From a virus (Duplodnaviria; Heunggongvirae; Uroviricota; Caudoviricetes): a stretch of DNA of 13,460 nucleotides. A program made the position numbers. The stretch is taken from IMG/VR virus record IMGVR_UViG_2671180439_000004; one strand, given 5' to 3'. The stretch's first letter is position 1. The number at the start of each line of letters is the position of its first letter. Shown here piece by piece: positions 1 through 3,000 of the stretch.

Positions 1-3000
1 CCAGCTGGCGTTTGAGACGTGCAATCTCGGTAGACATCTCCAGTTCACGTTCAGAAGACGTCTGCTGATTTTGCTGTTTACTGCGCCAGTTGTAGAGTTG
101 TGATTCATACAGGCTGAGTTCACGGGCTGCGGCAGTAACACCGATGCGTTCAGCAAGCTTCAGGGCTTCACTGCGAAATTCAGGCGAATGCTGTTTACGG
201 GGTTTTTTACTGGTTGATACTGTTTTTGTCATGTGAGTCACCTCTGACTGAGAGTTTACTCACTTAGCCGCGTGTCCACTATTGCTGGGTAAGATCAAAC
301 ATGTTAAAAATGTTAGAGAACACTGCACAACGGAAGAGACAACCAAGCAGGCTTTGATACTTCCTTTTTTGGACATCCTAGGCTTTAACGCATATGATCC
401 GCAAAAAGTCAAAGCTGAATATGGTGCGGACTTCCCTGGTGTGAAAGTGGGTGAGCGTGTAGATTATGCTCTATTCTGCCAAGGTGTTCCCGTTATGTTT
501 ATTGAGGCCAAAGGTTGTAAAGAAAAAATGGACAACCATTGTCCTCAATTATCTAGGTATTTTAATTCTACTCCTGAGGTGACAATATCAGCAATTACTA
601 ATGGAATTGAATGGCGCTTTTTTACGGATCTCAATGAAAAAAATATAATGGATTCAACGCCATTTTTACGAATCATGATGGATGACATTAAAGATTCTGA
701 TGCTGAGCAATTATTTAGATTCCGCCATGACAAATTCAAACCAGAGGCCCTAAGAACCCTTGCAGAAGAGAGTGTTTATATTTCTGCATTTGTTAAAGTC
801 GTGAGTACAAGCCTTCGGGAAGTAGATCATGAATTTGTTAGATATGTTGCAGGACGAGCAAATATTGGTCGTCAATTAAATCAAAGATTTATAGAAACAA
901 TAACTCCATTGGTGAGGCAGGCCGTAGAGAGGTCAGTAAGTGAAATGGTTGTTTCTGGTCTTTCATCAAGAACATCTATTCCTGAATTAGAATCCCCTGC
1001 TGATGTAACTGAAAATAATGTAATTGATGAGCGCGCAGATATTGTCGATGCAGAGAACCCCAACATAGTAACAACCTATAATGAAAGAATTTTATTTGAA
1101 AAAATCTGTTCTATTATAGGCCCTGCATACGAACTTCAAGCCAAAGATACAGAGTCCTATTACTCTATTCTTTTCCAAGGAAAAACAAACCGCTGGCTGG
1201 TTCGCTATTATGACAAGAAGAATCGCTCAAACATACAGTTACCAATTGATATCAATGAAATAACCGGTAATGAAATTAAAAGAGCCGGACTTGAACATGA
1301 TAACAATCGTATTTTCATTGAACATCCCGAGGATGTATTAAGGATTTCAGGTTTAATCCTTGATTCTTTACAATATGTACAGAATGATGAGAATTTCAGA
1401 AAGCGTCGTCCATAATCATAAAAACACTAGCTTTATTTCACACAAATCCCGCTTATGCGGGATTTTTTTTGACCGCCGACCAACATTAGGCTAAGCCTAT
1501 TGACATGACATTAGGCATAACCTAACATCAAGTGAGTCTGATGGACTATGTCATCTTGGCGGCACCAGTTTCCCCATTGTTTCTGGTTCGCCCTTTTACA
1601 AAAGACATCAGAGCACCACCGAGTGACGTGCCCTAACACAATCCGCCCGAGCGGATTTGCGGCCGCAGGTGCTCTTCTGTGTTGTGTGGAGAACTAACGT
1701 ACCGCCATTGCAGTGGCGGTCCCCCATCAGCAAGAAATTTTAACCAGCTATTCACCCATTCTCATGGGTTGGGTTGCTGCACCCTAAATTTACGCGTTGC
1801 AGAGCGTCAGATGGAGAACAAAAGATGGCTAAGACAGCAAAACAACTGATTAAACAGGCGTACGAAATAGCCAAAACTATGCCACCAGAACAGGCAGCAA
1901 TCATCAAGGAACTGGCTACCGTCCTCGATGTTTCGAATGTAGCTCTGCGCCAGACGCGCACCGAACGTGACGCCCTTCTTGCAGAGGTCAAATCATGGGC
2001 GAAAGAGTGTGATCGCCTGACCGAGCGACACACCAAGAATCGCACAAATATGCATGTTCTAGAGGCTATGCGCGATTTGAAGGCAATTTGCCCCACCAGC
2101 TTCCGTAACGTGGAGGCTCTCTGATGGCTAAAGACTCAAAGCTGGTATATGGCGCGAGTGGCAAAACGAACGTTTTAGCGTTTGAACCTGAAAAACTGCA
2201 CCTGGTTACCGACAAAACGCACCCGCTTTACGATGAGCGTATCCACCTGCCTATCAGCGAGGCAATGGTGCTGAACATCATGGACCAGGGCGTTCTTGAG
2301 CCGATTATCGTCTGGAAAGACCCGGAAACAGGGCTGTCTTGTGTGGTTGATGGTCGCCAGCGTGTGCGCCATACACTGGAAGCCAATAAGCGTCTGTCAA
2401 AATTGGGCAAAGAACCGTTACTGGTTCCGGGAGTCCCTAAACGTGGCTCTGCCATTCGCATGGCGCAGGCGATGGTAAGTGCTAACGAAATCCGCCAGGC
2501 AGATACGCCGCTAGGCCGAGCAAAGAAAATGGCTGATGCGCTGGAGCGCGGGCACGATGAGGATGATTTAGCGCTGATGTTTGGCGTGAGTGTCCAGACC
2601 GTACGCGCAACTCTGTCACTGCTGGATGCCACCCAAGCTGTTCGCGATGCAGTGGAGTCCGGAACGGTCACTGTTACCCAGGCGCGTCAGTTGGCATCGC
2701 TTAAACCCGAAGAGCAACGGGAGAAGGTCAAGCAGATCGAGACAGCGACCGCCGGCACCACGGGCCATGAAAAAGCTCGGCGTCAGCGTCAGATCCTCGG
2801 TGATGCAAAGCCGCGCCTGAAAACCCGCAAAGAAATTACAAAAGCACTCGAAGATGCCAGTGGCGAATATGCCGAGGCTCTGCGCTGGGTGCTTGGGGAG
2901 GCGCAATGAATTTTGAACCTGAGAATTACAGCAAATACACCCTGCGTCGGCTCGCCGCCCTGTTAGATGTGATCTGCTGGGTGCTGATTGCCGTAGTAAC

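What the first reader, a model, noticed from the sequence alone, without database searches (positions are those of the whole stretch)
1471..1824. Operator-like palindromes over a promoter, followed by a ~300-nt structured leader
Upstream of the operon, a near-consensus -35 TTGACA (1500-1505) is flanked by TAGGCT-a-AGCCTA (1487-1499) and TTAGG-cataa-CCTAA (1511-1525), and ACATTAGGC is repeated at 1483 and 1508. This looks like repressor operators or, given the ParB-like gene downstream, a parS-like centromere. The leader contains perfect hairpins ATCCGC-ccga-GCGGAT (1641-1656) and ACCGCCA-ttgcag-TGGCGGT (1701-1720). No ORF of plausible coding character is present, so it may encode a small regulatory RNA or an attenuator.
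Basis: seen in the sequence. Interest (0 to 1): 0.45.

Follow-up and report, generated by a model that had tools for sequence, protein, structure and literature searches.

The report
RacR operators, PL promoter, structured leader
This is the early-leftward promoter of a decaying Rac-type prophage, flanked by two binding sites for its own RacR repressor; it is followed by a worn copy of a conserved folded leader RNA, absent from Rfam, that is widespread in enterobacterial prophages and in intact copies carries a look-alike of the initiator-tRNA anticodon arm.

Summary
The two palindromes (1486-1500, 1511-1525) match the published RacR operator consensus (T/A)TAGGC-n3-GCCTA(T/A). They bracket a TTGACA -35 and overlap the -10. 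The same motif lies in the racR/cro-like intergenic region 3.2 kb upstream in the same prophage. The same layout lies downstream of racR in E. coli K-12 Rac.

Among 80 loci that all carry the ParB-like gene, the pair occurs only where RacR immunity is present. It is therefore an OL/PL-type operator-promoter, not a parS.

The leader (1593-1730) belongs to a conserved structured element:
- a terminator-like hairpin with a U-run;
- a long stem closing a three-way junction;
- a GGAGAA linker;
- a hairpin with a UUGCAG loop.

I found 78 close copies and further copies in 36 species genomes, 34 of them labelled Enterobacterales. Seven pairs show compensatory change. Rfam has no match, and the element is unlike HK022 put.

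Intact copies carry a 14-nt identity to the tRNA-fMet anticodon stem-loop. Hairpin 1701-1720 is conserved.

The function of the leader is unknown. The operator part is ordinary. The leader is a real lead.

The parts
1444..1470 (+). Intrinsic terminator (AAATCCCGC-ttat-GCGGGATTT followed by T8). It ends the upstream racR / HSDR_N-endonuclease transcript, just before the promoter.
   Evidence: Terminator scan. The same module is present in Klebsiella phage KpF5.
1486..1500 (.). Operator OL-a, TTAGGCTAAGCCTAT. It matches the RacR operator consensus (T/A)TAGGC-n3-GCCTA(T/A) exactly, and its last base is the first base of the -35.
   Evidence: 0 mismatches. Consensus from PMC9638921. The same motif lies in the racR/cro-like intergenic region, L001 10887-10901.
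1500..1505 (+). -35 hexamer TTGACA of the PL-type promoter.
   Evidence: It is conserved in K-12 Rac and KpF5.
1511..1525 (.). Operator OL-b, TTAGGCATAACCTAA (1 mismatch to the consensus). It lies 25 bp from OL-a, fills the promoter spacer and overlaps the -10.
   Evidence: The 25-bp spacing is the same as for the first two operators in the racR/cro-like intergenic region and in K-12 Rac.
1523..1528 (+). -10 hexamer TAACAT, 17-bp spacer. The inferred transcription start is near 1534-1536.
   Evidence: The start site is an inference from -10 spacing and is not measured.
1558..1597 (+). T0: terminator-like hairpin (GGCGGCACCAG ... CTGGTTCGCC) followed by C-TTTT. In relatives the stem is perfect, covaries, and is followed by 5-8 T. 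In the window the stem is mismatched and the U-run is only 4 long.
   Evidence: Sequences. Fold of the intact relative L025. The loop is too large for the terminator scan, so termination is an inference.
1594..1617 (+). P1, 5' strand (TTTTACAAAAGACATCAGAGCACC).
   Evidence: the repeat finder I1. RNAalifold. Pair counts.
1620..1650 (+). P2 region. In relatives it is a CCGGG/CCCGG stem capped by GGG-CUCAUAA-CCC, the tRNA-fMet anticodon-arm look-alike. In the window it reads GACGTGCCC-TAACACAATCC (1625-1644). Four of the six deviations from >=90%-conserved columns lie here.
1641..1656 (+). It is lineage-specific, created by the mutations that broke P2, and is not part of the conserved structure.
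   Evidence: Alignments. Relatives read ATCCGCTCGGGCGGAT.
1651..1666 (+). P3, variable hairpin GCGG-ATTTGCGG-CCGC. The closest relatives have the loop ATTTGCAG.
1668..1693 (+). P1, 3' strand (GGTGCTCTTCTGTGTTGTGTGGAGAA). It contains a boxA-like TGCTCTT and the SD-like GGAGAA.
   Evidence: Six sequence variants of the enclosed domain keep this stem.
1688..1698 (+). Conserved linker GGAGAACTAAC.
   Evidence: Nearly invariant.
1701..1720 (+). P4: hairpin ACCGCCA-TTGCAG-TGGCGGT. It is conserved, with many different stems around the same (U/G)UGCAG loop.
   Evidence: Whole-element covariance-model match at 1593-1730, 116 bits.
1721..1791 (+). Junction and spacer. In relatives with rdgC, that gene starts about 15 nt after P4. 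Here P4 runs into the upstream module of the 99-aa gene, with homology to the post-rdgC region from about 1740.
1792..1824 (+). Degenerate second TTGCAG hairpin (ACGCG-TTGCAG-AGCGT, 1792-1807; 74 relatives have CGCGT, so A1803 breaks the stem). It is followed by the SD GGAGAA (1813-1818), just before the ATG at 1825.
1825..2124 (+). First gene of the operon: a 99-aa protein of unknown function (PHROG 15091). It is followed by the ParB-like gene (2124-2909), two small ORFs and the integrase (3182-4159), ending at serU tRNA-Ser.

Best explanation
**Context.** The region is the early-leftward control region (PL/OL equivalent) of a roughly 15-kb defective lambdoid prophage with RacR-type immunity, integrated at serU.

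**Operators and promoter.**
- Two 15-bp RacR operators lie 25 bp apart. One abuts the -35 TTGACA; the other fills the spacer and overlaps the -10.
- RacR, encoded 3.2 kb upstream, is inferred to shut the promoter in the lysogen.
- Without RacR, transcription is inferred to start near 1535. It would run through the 99-aa gene and the ParB-like gene to the integrase.

**Leader.** The roughly 290-nt leader is non-coding. It is a member of a conserved structured leader RNA found between PL and the first early-left gene in many prophages, almost all in Enterobacterales. Its parts are:
- a terminator-like hairpin with a U-run;
- a long stem (about 25 bp) closing a three-way junction;
- a GGAGAA-CUAAC linker;
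- a hairpin with a UGCAG loop placed just 5' of the first gene's ribosome-binding site.

**Likely role of the leader (inferred, low confidence).** It is most likely a cis-acting post-initiation control element. It may cause partial termination at the first hairpin, and the long duplex may govern processing or stability and translation of the first cistron.

**State of the window's copy.** It is partly decayed. It has lost the initiator-tRNA-like hairpin and two of the three UGCAG loops.
For: **Operators**
- The two sites have 0 and 1 mismatches to the footprint-derived RacR consensus (PMC9638921).
- Chance expectation is 0.06 per window.
- The same motif occurs three times between racR and the divergent HTH gene of the same prophage.
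- K-12 Rac, whose RacR is only 56% identical, has the same layout downstream of racR: ACATTAGGC-n3-GCCTA-TTGACA ... ATTAGGC-n3-ACCTA-TAGT.
- RacR depletion in K-12 derepresses ydaG through intR 40- to 100-fold.
- The pair tracks RacR and not ParB: 17 of 17 loci with RacR have it, against 2 of 63 without.
- A prophage with a different repressor (L003) has its own repeated motif at both positions.

**Promoter**
- 10 of 12 matches to the sigma-70 consensus.

**Leader**
- Six or more unrelated apical sequences keep the long stem.
- RNAalifold finds 7 pairs with compensatory change.
- On 44 distinct sequences, 97.4% of cells pair, against 42-59% when partners are slid. There are 46 double-change cells, and 0 of 500 shuffles reached the observed value.
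- The window scores 116 bits, E = 6e-30.
- There are 120 or more viral contigs with the core motif, and 36 species genomes that hold the core motif together with the long stem (P1), 34 of them labelled Enterobacterales.
- The first downstream gene varies: rdgC, yfdP-like, or the 99-aa gene.
- An intact relative folds with z = -4.6.

**Decay in the window**
- 6 deviations at 75 conserved columns, against a median of 1.
Against: - Nothing here measures binding, transcription starts or RNA ends.
- There are only two operators, against three in lambda OL, and the -10 is weak (TAACAT).
- The alignment used for the pair counts was fitted to the model, and many sequences are close relatives, so the shuffle control overstates significance.
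- Most of P1 is conserved in sequence on both strands, so only 3 of its 22 pairs show double changes.
- The sense strand is only marginally more stable than the antisense strand (mean -63.9 against -61.2 kcal/mol; more stable in 27 of 44). An antisense-RNA role is therefore not excluded.
- The proposed role of the leader (attenuation, processing, translation control) rests on anatomy alone.
- The window's copy may be non-functional.
Confidence: 0.8

Rival explanations
1. The palindromes are a parS-like centromere bound by the downstream ParB-like protein.
For: A ParB/HTH_ParB protein is encoded 600 bp downstream. Palindromes are typical of parS sites.
Against: All 80 related loci encode the ParB-like protein. 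The palindrome pair is present only in the 17 with RacR, plus 2 whose racR position is off the locus, and absent in 61. The motif equals the published RacR operator. It recurs in the racR control region and in K-12 Rac, where no ParB-like gene is annotated in the 12 kb fetched. By inspection it is unlike the canonical parS TGTTNCACGTGAAACA; that consensus is from my own knowledge.
Confidence: 0.02
2. The leader is a processive antitermination site. It could be RNA-only like HK022 put, or nut-like (boxA TGCTCTT plus a boxB-like hairpin at 1701-1720 bound by an unknown N-like protein).
For: - It sits where putL and nutL sit, between PL and the first gene.
- The 3' strand of P1 contains TGCTCTT(T), the boxA core.
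- The loop of hairpin P4 is conserved while its stem varies, as expected for a protein-binding hairpin.
- A terminator-like hairpin lies in the leader.
Against: - There is no sequence or architectural resemblance to putL or putR.
- No second copy exists in the pR operon or anywhere else in the complete KpF5 genome.
- No convincing + strand intrinsic terminator was found within the KpF5 pL operon downstream of the leader; only two weak consensus matches.
- I saw no N-like ORF with an arginine-rich N-terminus among the first genes after the leader, which in any case differ between phages.
- The boxA-like bases are base-paired, and they covary to GCGCTT and GCCCTT.
- The terminator-like hairpin lies upstream of P1, not downstream.
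Confidence: 0.1
3. The leader's main product is a small trans-acting RNA. It could be the roughly 60-nt transcript from PL to the T0 hairpin and U-run, or a species processed from the three-way-junction domain.
For: The hairpin plus U-run at 1558-1597 resembles an sRNA 3' end. It is conserved, with covarying stems, across genera. The apical domain of P1 is hypervariable, as sRNA seed regions can be.
Against: In the window the U-run is 4 nt and the stem is mismatched. In many relatives T0 lies hundreds of nt from PL. No Rfam sRNA matches. No target complementarity was identified.
Confidence: 0.12
4. The region encodes one or more small proteins (ORFs 1548-1697, 49 aa; 1679-1849, 56 aa).
For: The ORFs exist. 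One phage record annotates an in-frame upstream extension of the 99-aa gene.
Against: Single-base indels relative to a 94%-identical relative fall inside these ORFs. The region is a mosaic of unrelated segments that keep only the helices. Conservation follows base pairs, not codons.
Confidence: 0.03

Closest known systems
Rac prophage RacR operators O1-O3 in the racR-ydaS intergenic region (Wisniewska et al., NAR 2022, PMC9638921)
   Same: The consensus is identical, (T/A)TAGGC-n3-GCCTA(T/A), with the half-site ATTAGGC. Multiple sites about 25 bp apart overlap a strong sigma-70 promoter.
   Different: The location differs. These sites lie downstream of racR, over the promoter of the leftward (int-proximal) operon. 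The papers I read map only the intergenic operators and describe the RacR regulon as not yet characterised in detail. There are two sites here rather than three or four.
Bacteriophage lambda OL/PL
   Same: Repressor operators overlap the early-left promoter. They lie downstream of the repressor gene and drive an operon that ends in xis/int. The same operator type is duplicated at OR.
   Different: The repressor family differs (RacR, not cI/LexA-like). There are two operators. I found no N gene or nutL. A moron (HSDR_N endonuclease) and an IS3 lie between the repressor gene and PL.
Lambda N-leader (nutL plus an RNase III-sensitive stem-loop) and HK022 putL
   Same: Each is a long, structured, untranslated leader between PL and the first early-left gene. 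The description of the lambda N-leader is from my own knowledge; put details are from PMC9378689.
   Different: The architecture differs: terminator-like hairpin, 25-bp stem, three-way junction, UGCAG hairpin. There is no copy in pR, no similarity to put and no boxB/N pair.
E. coli thrS operator and other tRNA anticodon-arm mimics in mRNA leaders
   Same: In intact relatives a leader hairpin reproduces a tRNA anticodon stem-loop. Here it is 14 nt identical to tRNA-fMet, CGGGCUCAUAACCC. The thrS comparison is from my own knowledge.
   Different: No partner is known. The mimicked tRNA is the initiator. The element lies in a phage early leader whose downstream gene varies. The window's own copy has lost the motif.

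Membership tests
RacR-type operator / PL-OL region of a lambdoid prophage | Sites match the experimentally derived RacR operator consensus (T/A)TAGGC-n3-GCCTA(T/A). | tested here: met
   1486-1500 has 0 mismatches and 1511-1525 has 1. Chance expectation is 0.06 per window.
RacR-type operator / PL-OL region of a lambdoid prophage | The cognate repressor gene lies in the same element, with the same operators in its own divergent control region. | tested here: met
   racR is at L001 10954-11430. Operators lie at 10887, 10912 and 10947, between racR and the HTH gene.
RacR-type operator / PL-OL region of a lambdoid prophage | The operators overlap the -35/-10 of a sigma-70 promoter that faces away from the repressor gene, towards int. 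| tested here: met
   TTGACA-17-TAACAT at 1500-1528. The operon 1825-4159 ends in the integrase next to serU.
RacR-type operator / PL-OL region of a lambdoid prophage | The feature co-occurs with the repressor type across related elements. | tested here: met
   17 of 17 RacR loci have the 25-bp pair, and 61 of 63 non-RacR loci lack it. K-12 Rac has the same layout.
RacR-type operator / PL-OL region of a lambdoid prophage | The repressor binds and represses the promoter. | not testable with these tools
   Only indirect support: K-12 transcriptomes show the leftward Rac genes derepressed on RacR loss.
parS / ParB centromere | The site co-occurs with the ParB gene. | tested here: not met
   The ParB-like gene is in all 80 loci; the palindromes are in 19.
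HK022-type put antiterminator RNA | About 70 nt forming two stem-loops, with copies downstream of both PL and PR and sequence similarity among put sites. | tested here: not met
   No similarity to putL or putR as read from AF069308. There is a single copy per phage and none in the pR operon or elsewhere in KpF5.
Lambda-type nut site | A single-stranded boxA, a boxB hairpin, a cognate N protein, and sites in both early operons. | tested here: not met
   The boxA-like TGCTCTT is paired and covaries. I saw no N-like ORF with an arginine-rich N-terminus among the first genes after the leader. There is no pR copy by covariance model. One hairpin with a TTGCAG loop does occur in the pR operon of L003, so this point is not fully closed.
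Any Rfam 15 family | A covariance-model match. | tested here: not met
   Nothing above 19 bits in 1380-1900. Nothing at gathering score in the leader. Nothing at E <= 0.1 in six intact relatives.
tRNA gene / tRNA-like structure | A cloverleaf detectable by ARAGORN. | tested here: not met
   No tRNA was called at the element in 8 loci. Only the anticodon stem-loop is mimicked.
Intrinsic-terminator attenuator | A GC-rich hairpin followed by a U-run within the leader, plus an alternative antiterminator pairing. | tested here: inconclusive
   The hairpin and U-run are conserved with covarying stems, but the loops are 13-30 nt. In the window the stem is mismatched and there are only 4 U. No competing antiterminator helix upstream was identified.

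The most novel reading that the evidence does not exclude
The conserved PL-leader element may be a new class of phage RNA whose invariant GGG-CUCAUAA-CCC hairpin is a functional mimic of the initiator-tRNA anticodon arm. That arm has three G-C pairs and the CAU anticodon. The RNA would be made in quantity as the very first transcript after infection or induction. It could engage host machinery that reads that arm: the 30S P site with IF3, MetRS, or a VapC-type or other anticodon-arm nuclease of a defence or toxin system. It would then act as a decoy or a translational control device. The UGCAG-loop hairpins would be a second, separate recognition signal.
Probability: 0.15. Interest if true: 0.8.

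Novelty: new variant of a known kind. Interest (0 to 1): 0.42.

Why it matters
**Operators.** This result assigns a second operator cluster (an OL) to the RacR repressor family, including in E. coli K-12 Rac. There, the published work I read maps only the racR-ydaS intergenic operators. The new cluster explains why the whole leftward Rac operon (ydaG through intR, including kilR and recET) is derepressed when RacR is lost.

**Leader.** The element is widespread, strongly conserved and absent from Rfam. It sits at the most strategic position of a temperate phage, the start of the immediate-early left transcript, in prophages of at least 16 enterobacterial genera. Intact copies imitate the initiator-tRNA anticodon arm. 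If that imitation is functional, it would be a new way for a phage RNA to touch host translation or tRNA-directed defence.

**This window.** It is a decayed example, so the experiments belong on intact relatives such as Klebsiella phage KpF5 or Salmonella phage F1055.

Tried and rejected
- **Rfam.** I ran the gathering threshold on the whole window, the permissive threshold on 1380-1900, and six intact relatives. Nothing relevant matched; the only gathering-score hits in the window are two tRNAs elsewhere.
- **HK022 put.** I read the putL and putR sequences from AF069308. There is no resemblance.
- **tRNA detection.** ARAGORN found no tRNA at the element in the 8 loci scanned.
- **A second copy in the pR operon or elsewhere (nutR/putR logic).** The covariance model found only the PL-leader copy, its palindromic reverse-strand echo, and weak upstream tandem 'domain A' copies.
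- **Intrinsic terminators inside the KpF5 pL operon that would demand antitermination.** The scan found no convincing one on the sense strand downstream of the leader, only two weak consensus matches.
- **Strand asymmetry of folding.** The difference is small, so it does not settle RNA polarity.
- **Loop-loop kissing between the P3 and P4 UGCA loops.** By inspection, the P3 and P4 loops do not covary, so I dropped this idea.
- **A leader peptide after GGAGAACTAAC.** An ATG is present in KpF5-type copies only, so I rejected it.
- **Literature search for the sequence strings.** Nothing relevant turned up.
- **Literature search for an initiator-tRNA mimic in prophage leaders.** Nothing relevant turned up.
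- **K-12 CPS-53 (yfdP) as a well-studied carrier.** The element is absent there.
- **Non-enterobacterial matches to the 19-nt core in the genome scan.** They lack P1, and their number is close to my rough estimate of about 35 chance hits in 596 Gb.
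Full report
**Context**

The window is E. coli chromosome. It contains:
- tRNA-Ser serU (4275-4361, minus strand);
- mtfA;
- tRNA-Asn asnT (5353-5425);
- a yeeJ gene split by an internal stop.

Left of serU lies the right end of a roughly 15-kb prophage remnant, reading in this order:
- an IS3 end (1 to about 290);
- a low-GC HSDR_N-type endonuclease gene (282-1415);
- a terminator (1444-1470);
- the finding (1471-1824);
- a 99-aa gene (1825-2124);
- a ParB-like gene (2124-2909);
- two small ORFs;
- a tyrosine integrase (3182-4159).

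In a fully identical genome (NZ_CP145662, locus L001; window coordinate = L001 coordinate minus 12601), the prophage continues leftwards. There it carries racR, a divergent HTH (cro-like) gene, a YmfL-family gene, a methylase and a RusA fragment, but no morphogenesis genes. The operon that starts at 1825 is therefore the int-proximal 'early-left' operon of a defective lambdoid prophage. The finding lies where lambda has OL/PL.

**Check of the observation**

- The promoter scan gives TTGACA (1500-1505), a 17-bp spacer and TAACAT (1523-1528), which is 10 of 12 matches.
- The leader 1530-1830 folds with z = -2.9 on the sense strand and z = -2.5 on the antisense strand.

**The palindromes are RacR operators**

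1. The racR / HTH-gene intergenic region of the same prophage contains TTAGGCTAAGCCTAA, a perfect 15-bp palindrome. It also has two degenerate copies 25 and 35 bp further on.
2. The two sites in the finding are TTAGGCTAAGCCTAT (1486-1500) and TTAGGCATAACCTAA (1511-1525), also 25 bp apart.
3. The published, footprint-based RacR operator consensus is (T/A)TAGGC-n3-GCCTA(T/A), with the half-site ATTAGGC (PMC9638921). The finding's sites match it with 0 and 1 mismatches.
4. At that stringency they are the only two matches in the 13.5-kb window, against 0.06 expected.
5. K-12 Rac has a RacR only 56% identical. Even so, the segment between racR and ydaG reads ACATTAGGCATAGCCTATTGACAATCAATTAGGCATTACCTATAGT. 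That is the same two operators, the same 25-bp spacing, the same TTGACA and a -10 in the same register.
6. The papers I read map RacR sites only in the racR-ydaS intergenic region. They describe the RacR regulon, including ydaFG, as not yet characterised in detail.
7. Their transcriptomes show ydaG, ydaF, kilR, ydaE, racC, recET, ralR, xisR and intR derepressed 40- to 100-fold or more when RacR is perturbed. That is what an OL/PL under RacR control predicts.

**Why it is not a parS**

I fetched 80 viral contigs that all encode the 99-aa and ParB-like genes.
- The 25-bp operator pair occurs in all 17 with a RacR homologue.
- It also occurs in 2 loci whose racR position falls off the sequence held.
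- It occurs in none of the other 61.
- A relative with a LexA-family repressor (L003) carries its own motif, GGTAAC-n4-GGTAC, in both its cI/cro intergenic region and its PL region.

The palindromes belong to the immunity module, not to the ParB-like gene.

**The leader is mosaic but keeps one architecture**

Related loci share the window's sequence only in blocks, with breakpoints near 1567, 1589, 1669, 1681 and 1740.

Aligning the different versions shows at least six unrelated sequences for the segment equivalent to 1618-1667. All are enclosed by the same long helix. Its 5' strand reads ...ACACAAC-n3-AAGAGCA.. and its 3' strand reads ..TGCTCTT-n3-GTTGTGTGGAGAA.

The window's own type is the commonest. 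It usually sits directly upstream of rdgC, but also upstream of yfdP-like genes. In 61 of the 85 loci examined that carry the 99-aa gene, it lies upstream of that gene with no rdgC in between.

From 5' to 3' the element consists of:
- **T0:** a GC-rich hairpin with covarying stems, followed by 5-8 U.
- **P1:** about 25 bp. Its base pairs the U-run with GGAGAA(A).
- **Three-way junction, P2:** a CCGGG/CCCGG stem, an internal loop, and a cap GGG-CUCAUAA-CCC.
- **Three-way junction, P3:** a variable hairpin.
- **Linker:** GGAGAA(A)CUAAC.
- **P4:** a hairpin whose loop is nearly always (U/G)UGCAG.
- In rdgC- and yfdP-type copies, the Shine-Dalgarno sequence and start codon of the first gene follow about 15 nt further on.

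**Support for the structure**

- RNAalifold on 25 representatives predicts P1 and P2, with 7 pairs showing compensatory double changes.
- A covariance model built from that alignment finds one strong copy per locus on the operon strand.
- The model scores the window at 116 bits (E = 6e-30). It also detects the other apical variants at E = 1e-10 to 1e-4.
- On 44 distinct sequences, 97.4% of cells form standard pairs, against 42-59% when partners are slid by 1-3 columns.
- There are 46 double-change cells against 11.8 in shuffles, and 0 of 500 shuffles reached the observed value.
- An intact close relative (L025) folds with z = -4.6.

Caveats:
- The alignment was fitted to the model.
- Many sequences are close relatives.
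- Much of P1 is conserved in sequence on both strands.
- The sense strand is only slightly more stable than the antisense strand.

**Distribution**

- The core together with the P1 motif occurs in 36 species-representative genomes.
- Of these, 34 are labelled Enterobacterales, from Escherichia and Klebsiella to Erwinia and Mixta. The other two are labelled Chryseobacterium and a Geobacteraceae MAG and are probably mislabelled or mis-binned; I did not check them.
- About 30 further core matches lack P1. That is close to my rough estimate of about 35 chance matches in 596 Gb, and 10 of them that I scanned had no tRNA gene at the match.
- Rfam 15 has no match, either in the window or in six intact relatives.
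- Literal sequence strings are not in the searchable literature.

**The initiator-tRNA resemblance**

The P2 cap plus flanks, CG(A)CGGGCUCAUAACCC(A)A, matches E. coli tRNA-fMet (metY: CGUCGGGCUCAUAACCCGA) at 19 of 21 positions, with a 14-nt exact run.
- 20 of 44 distinct copies have the exact 14-mer.
- 37 of 44 keep GGG-nnCAUnn-CCC.
- The three G-C pairs and CAU are the conserved parts, and these are the features that define the initiator anticodon arm (my own knowledge).
- No cloverleaf is present.
- I estimate a 14-nt match to some E. coli tRNA by chance at roughly 2e-3. This is a post-hoc estimate.
- Whether the resemblance is functional is unknown.

**State of the window's copy**

The window deviates at 6 of 75 columns that are at least 90% conserved. 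The median among the 44 distinct copies is 1 and the maximum is 9. Four of the six deviations lie in P2.
- The initiator-like cap reads GTGCCC-TAACAC instead of GGGCTCATAACCC.
- The P3 loop has TTGCGG for TTGCAG.
- T0 is mismatched and has only four U.
- The second TTGCAG hairpin, just upstream of the 99-aa gene, is broken by A1803. Seventy-four relatives have ACGCG-TTGCAG-CGCGT there.
- P1 (80% complementary), the linker and P4 (1701-1720) are intact.

This fits a cryptic prophage that also carries an IS3 and several pseudogenes.

**How it most likely works**

Shown by sequence and comparison:
- operator identity;
- operator position over the promoter;
- the link to RacR;
- the conserved, non-coding, structured nature of the leader.

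Inferred:
- RacR occupies both sites and blocks RNA polymerase.
- Transcription starts near 1535.

Low-confidence inferences about the leader:
- T0 may terminate a fraction of transcripts.
- The 25-bp P1 duplex is the kind of substrate RNase III cuts in other phage early leaders (my own knowledge).
- P4 sits just 5' of the ribosome-binding site, where it could stabilise the processed mRNA or serve as a protein-binding operator.

I rank a cis-acting post-initiation control role first, at about 0.4-0.5 within the leader question. A small trans-acting RNA comes next at about 0.12, a put/nut-like antiterminator at about 0.1, and an initiator-tRNA mimic that engages host machinery at about 0.15.

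The antiterminator reading is weakened by:
- the lack of a pR copy;
- the lack of any resemblance to put;
- the lack of convincing sense-strand terminators in the KpF5 pL operon downstream of the leader;
- covariation within the boxA-like bases.

**Verdict**

- The operator-promoter half is an ordinary lambdoid feature. It is new only in that an OL for RacR, including in K-12 Rac, appears not to have been described in the papers I could read.
- The parS idea is rejected.
- The leader half is a decayed copy of a real, widespread, uncatalogued structured RNA with an unexplained initiator-tRNA-like hairpin. That is worth following up in intact phages.

Noticed in passing
E. coli K-12 MG1655 NC_000913.3, about 1419629-1419668 (L089 8630-8669, minus strand), between racR and ydaG: The archetypal Rac prophage has the same two RacR operators bracketing a TTGACA -35, with a TATAGT -10. 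This is an apparent OL/PL for the ydaG-ydaF-kilR...intR operon. The RacR papers I read map only the racR-ydaS intergenic operators.
   Followed up: partly
Window 1701-1720, 1792-1807 and 1651-1666; L004/KpF5 5558-5573, 6567-6582, 7336-7357 and 9064-9081: Hairpins with an identical TTGCAG hexaloop but unrelated stems occur only on the transcribed strand of the pL operon. Most sit 15-18 nt upstream of start codons, just 5' of a GGAGAA Shine-Dalgarno; one lies inside the ParB-like gene. Counts of sense against antisense are 4 to 0 in the whole KpF5 genome, 169 to 0 in 85 loci, and 69 to 0 in 120 further loci. This suggests a loop-specific trans-acting partner.
   Followed up: partly
L100 1113-1236; L006 (Salmonella phage F1055) 2672-2810; L174 and L180 upstream of the main element: Some relatives carry a second, upstream 'domain A'. 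It has the same CACACAAC/GTTGTG clamp, enclosing two hairpins that both have tRNA T-loop-like UUCGAUU loops (CUGG-UUCGAUU-CCAG and GUCCG-UUCGAUU-CGGAC). It is absent from the window.
   Followed up: no
L003 4170-4100 (minus strand, pR operon, downstream of the YmfL-family gene): The hairpin GACGCCAGcGAG-TTGCAG-CTCcTGGCGTC is followed by GGAGATTACTAACgcATG. These are the same loop and the same GGAGA..CTAAC motif as in the PL leader, but in the rightward operon and in the opposite order. The covariance model does not detect it.
   Followed up: no
Window 1 to about 290 and 282-1415: An IS3 end abuts a low-GC HSDR_N (type I restriction enzyme R N-terminal domain) endonuclease-like gene. In phage KpF5 that gene follows racR directly, so the IS3 has inserted between the repressor gene and this moron.
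   Followed up: partly
Window 5667-8165 and 8214-12818: The two large ORFs (832 and 1534 aa) are the inverse-autotransporter adhesin gene yeeJ split by an internal stop. An identical genome annotates it as a pseudogene.
   Followed up: no
L001 1906-2042 (outside the window) and window 4275-4361: The prophage remnant is bounded by serU tRNA-Ser on the right. On the left is a 137-nt feature annotated 'tRNA-OTHER', presumably the partial tRNA duplication of the other att site.
   Followed up: no
L292 (K-12 CPS-53) 7240-7620: The K-12 cryptic prophage CPS-53 keeps yfdP-yfdQ-yfdR, which in many phages follow the leader element. It has lost the element itself, and the region upstream of yfdP holds short tandem repeats (GATTTTGACGGGTCA-like).
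   Followed up: no
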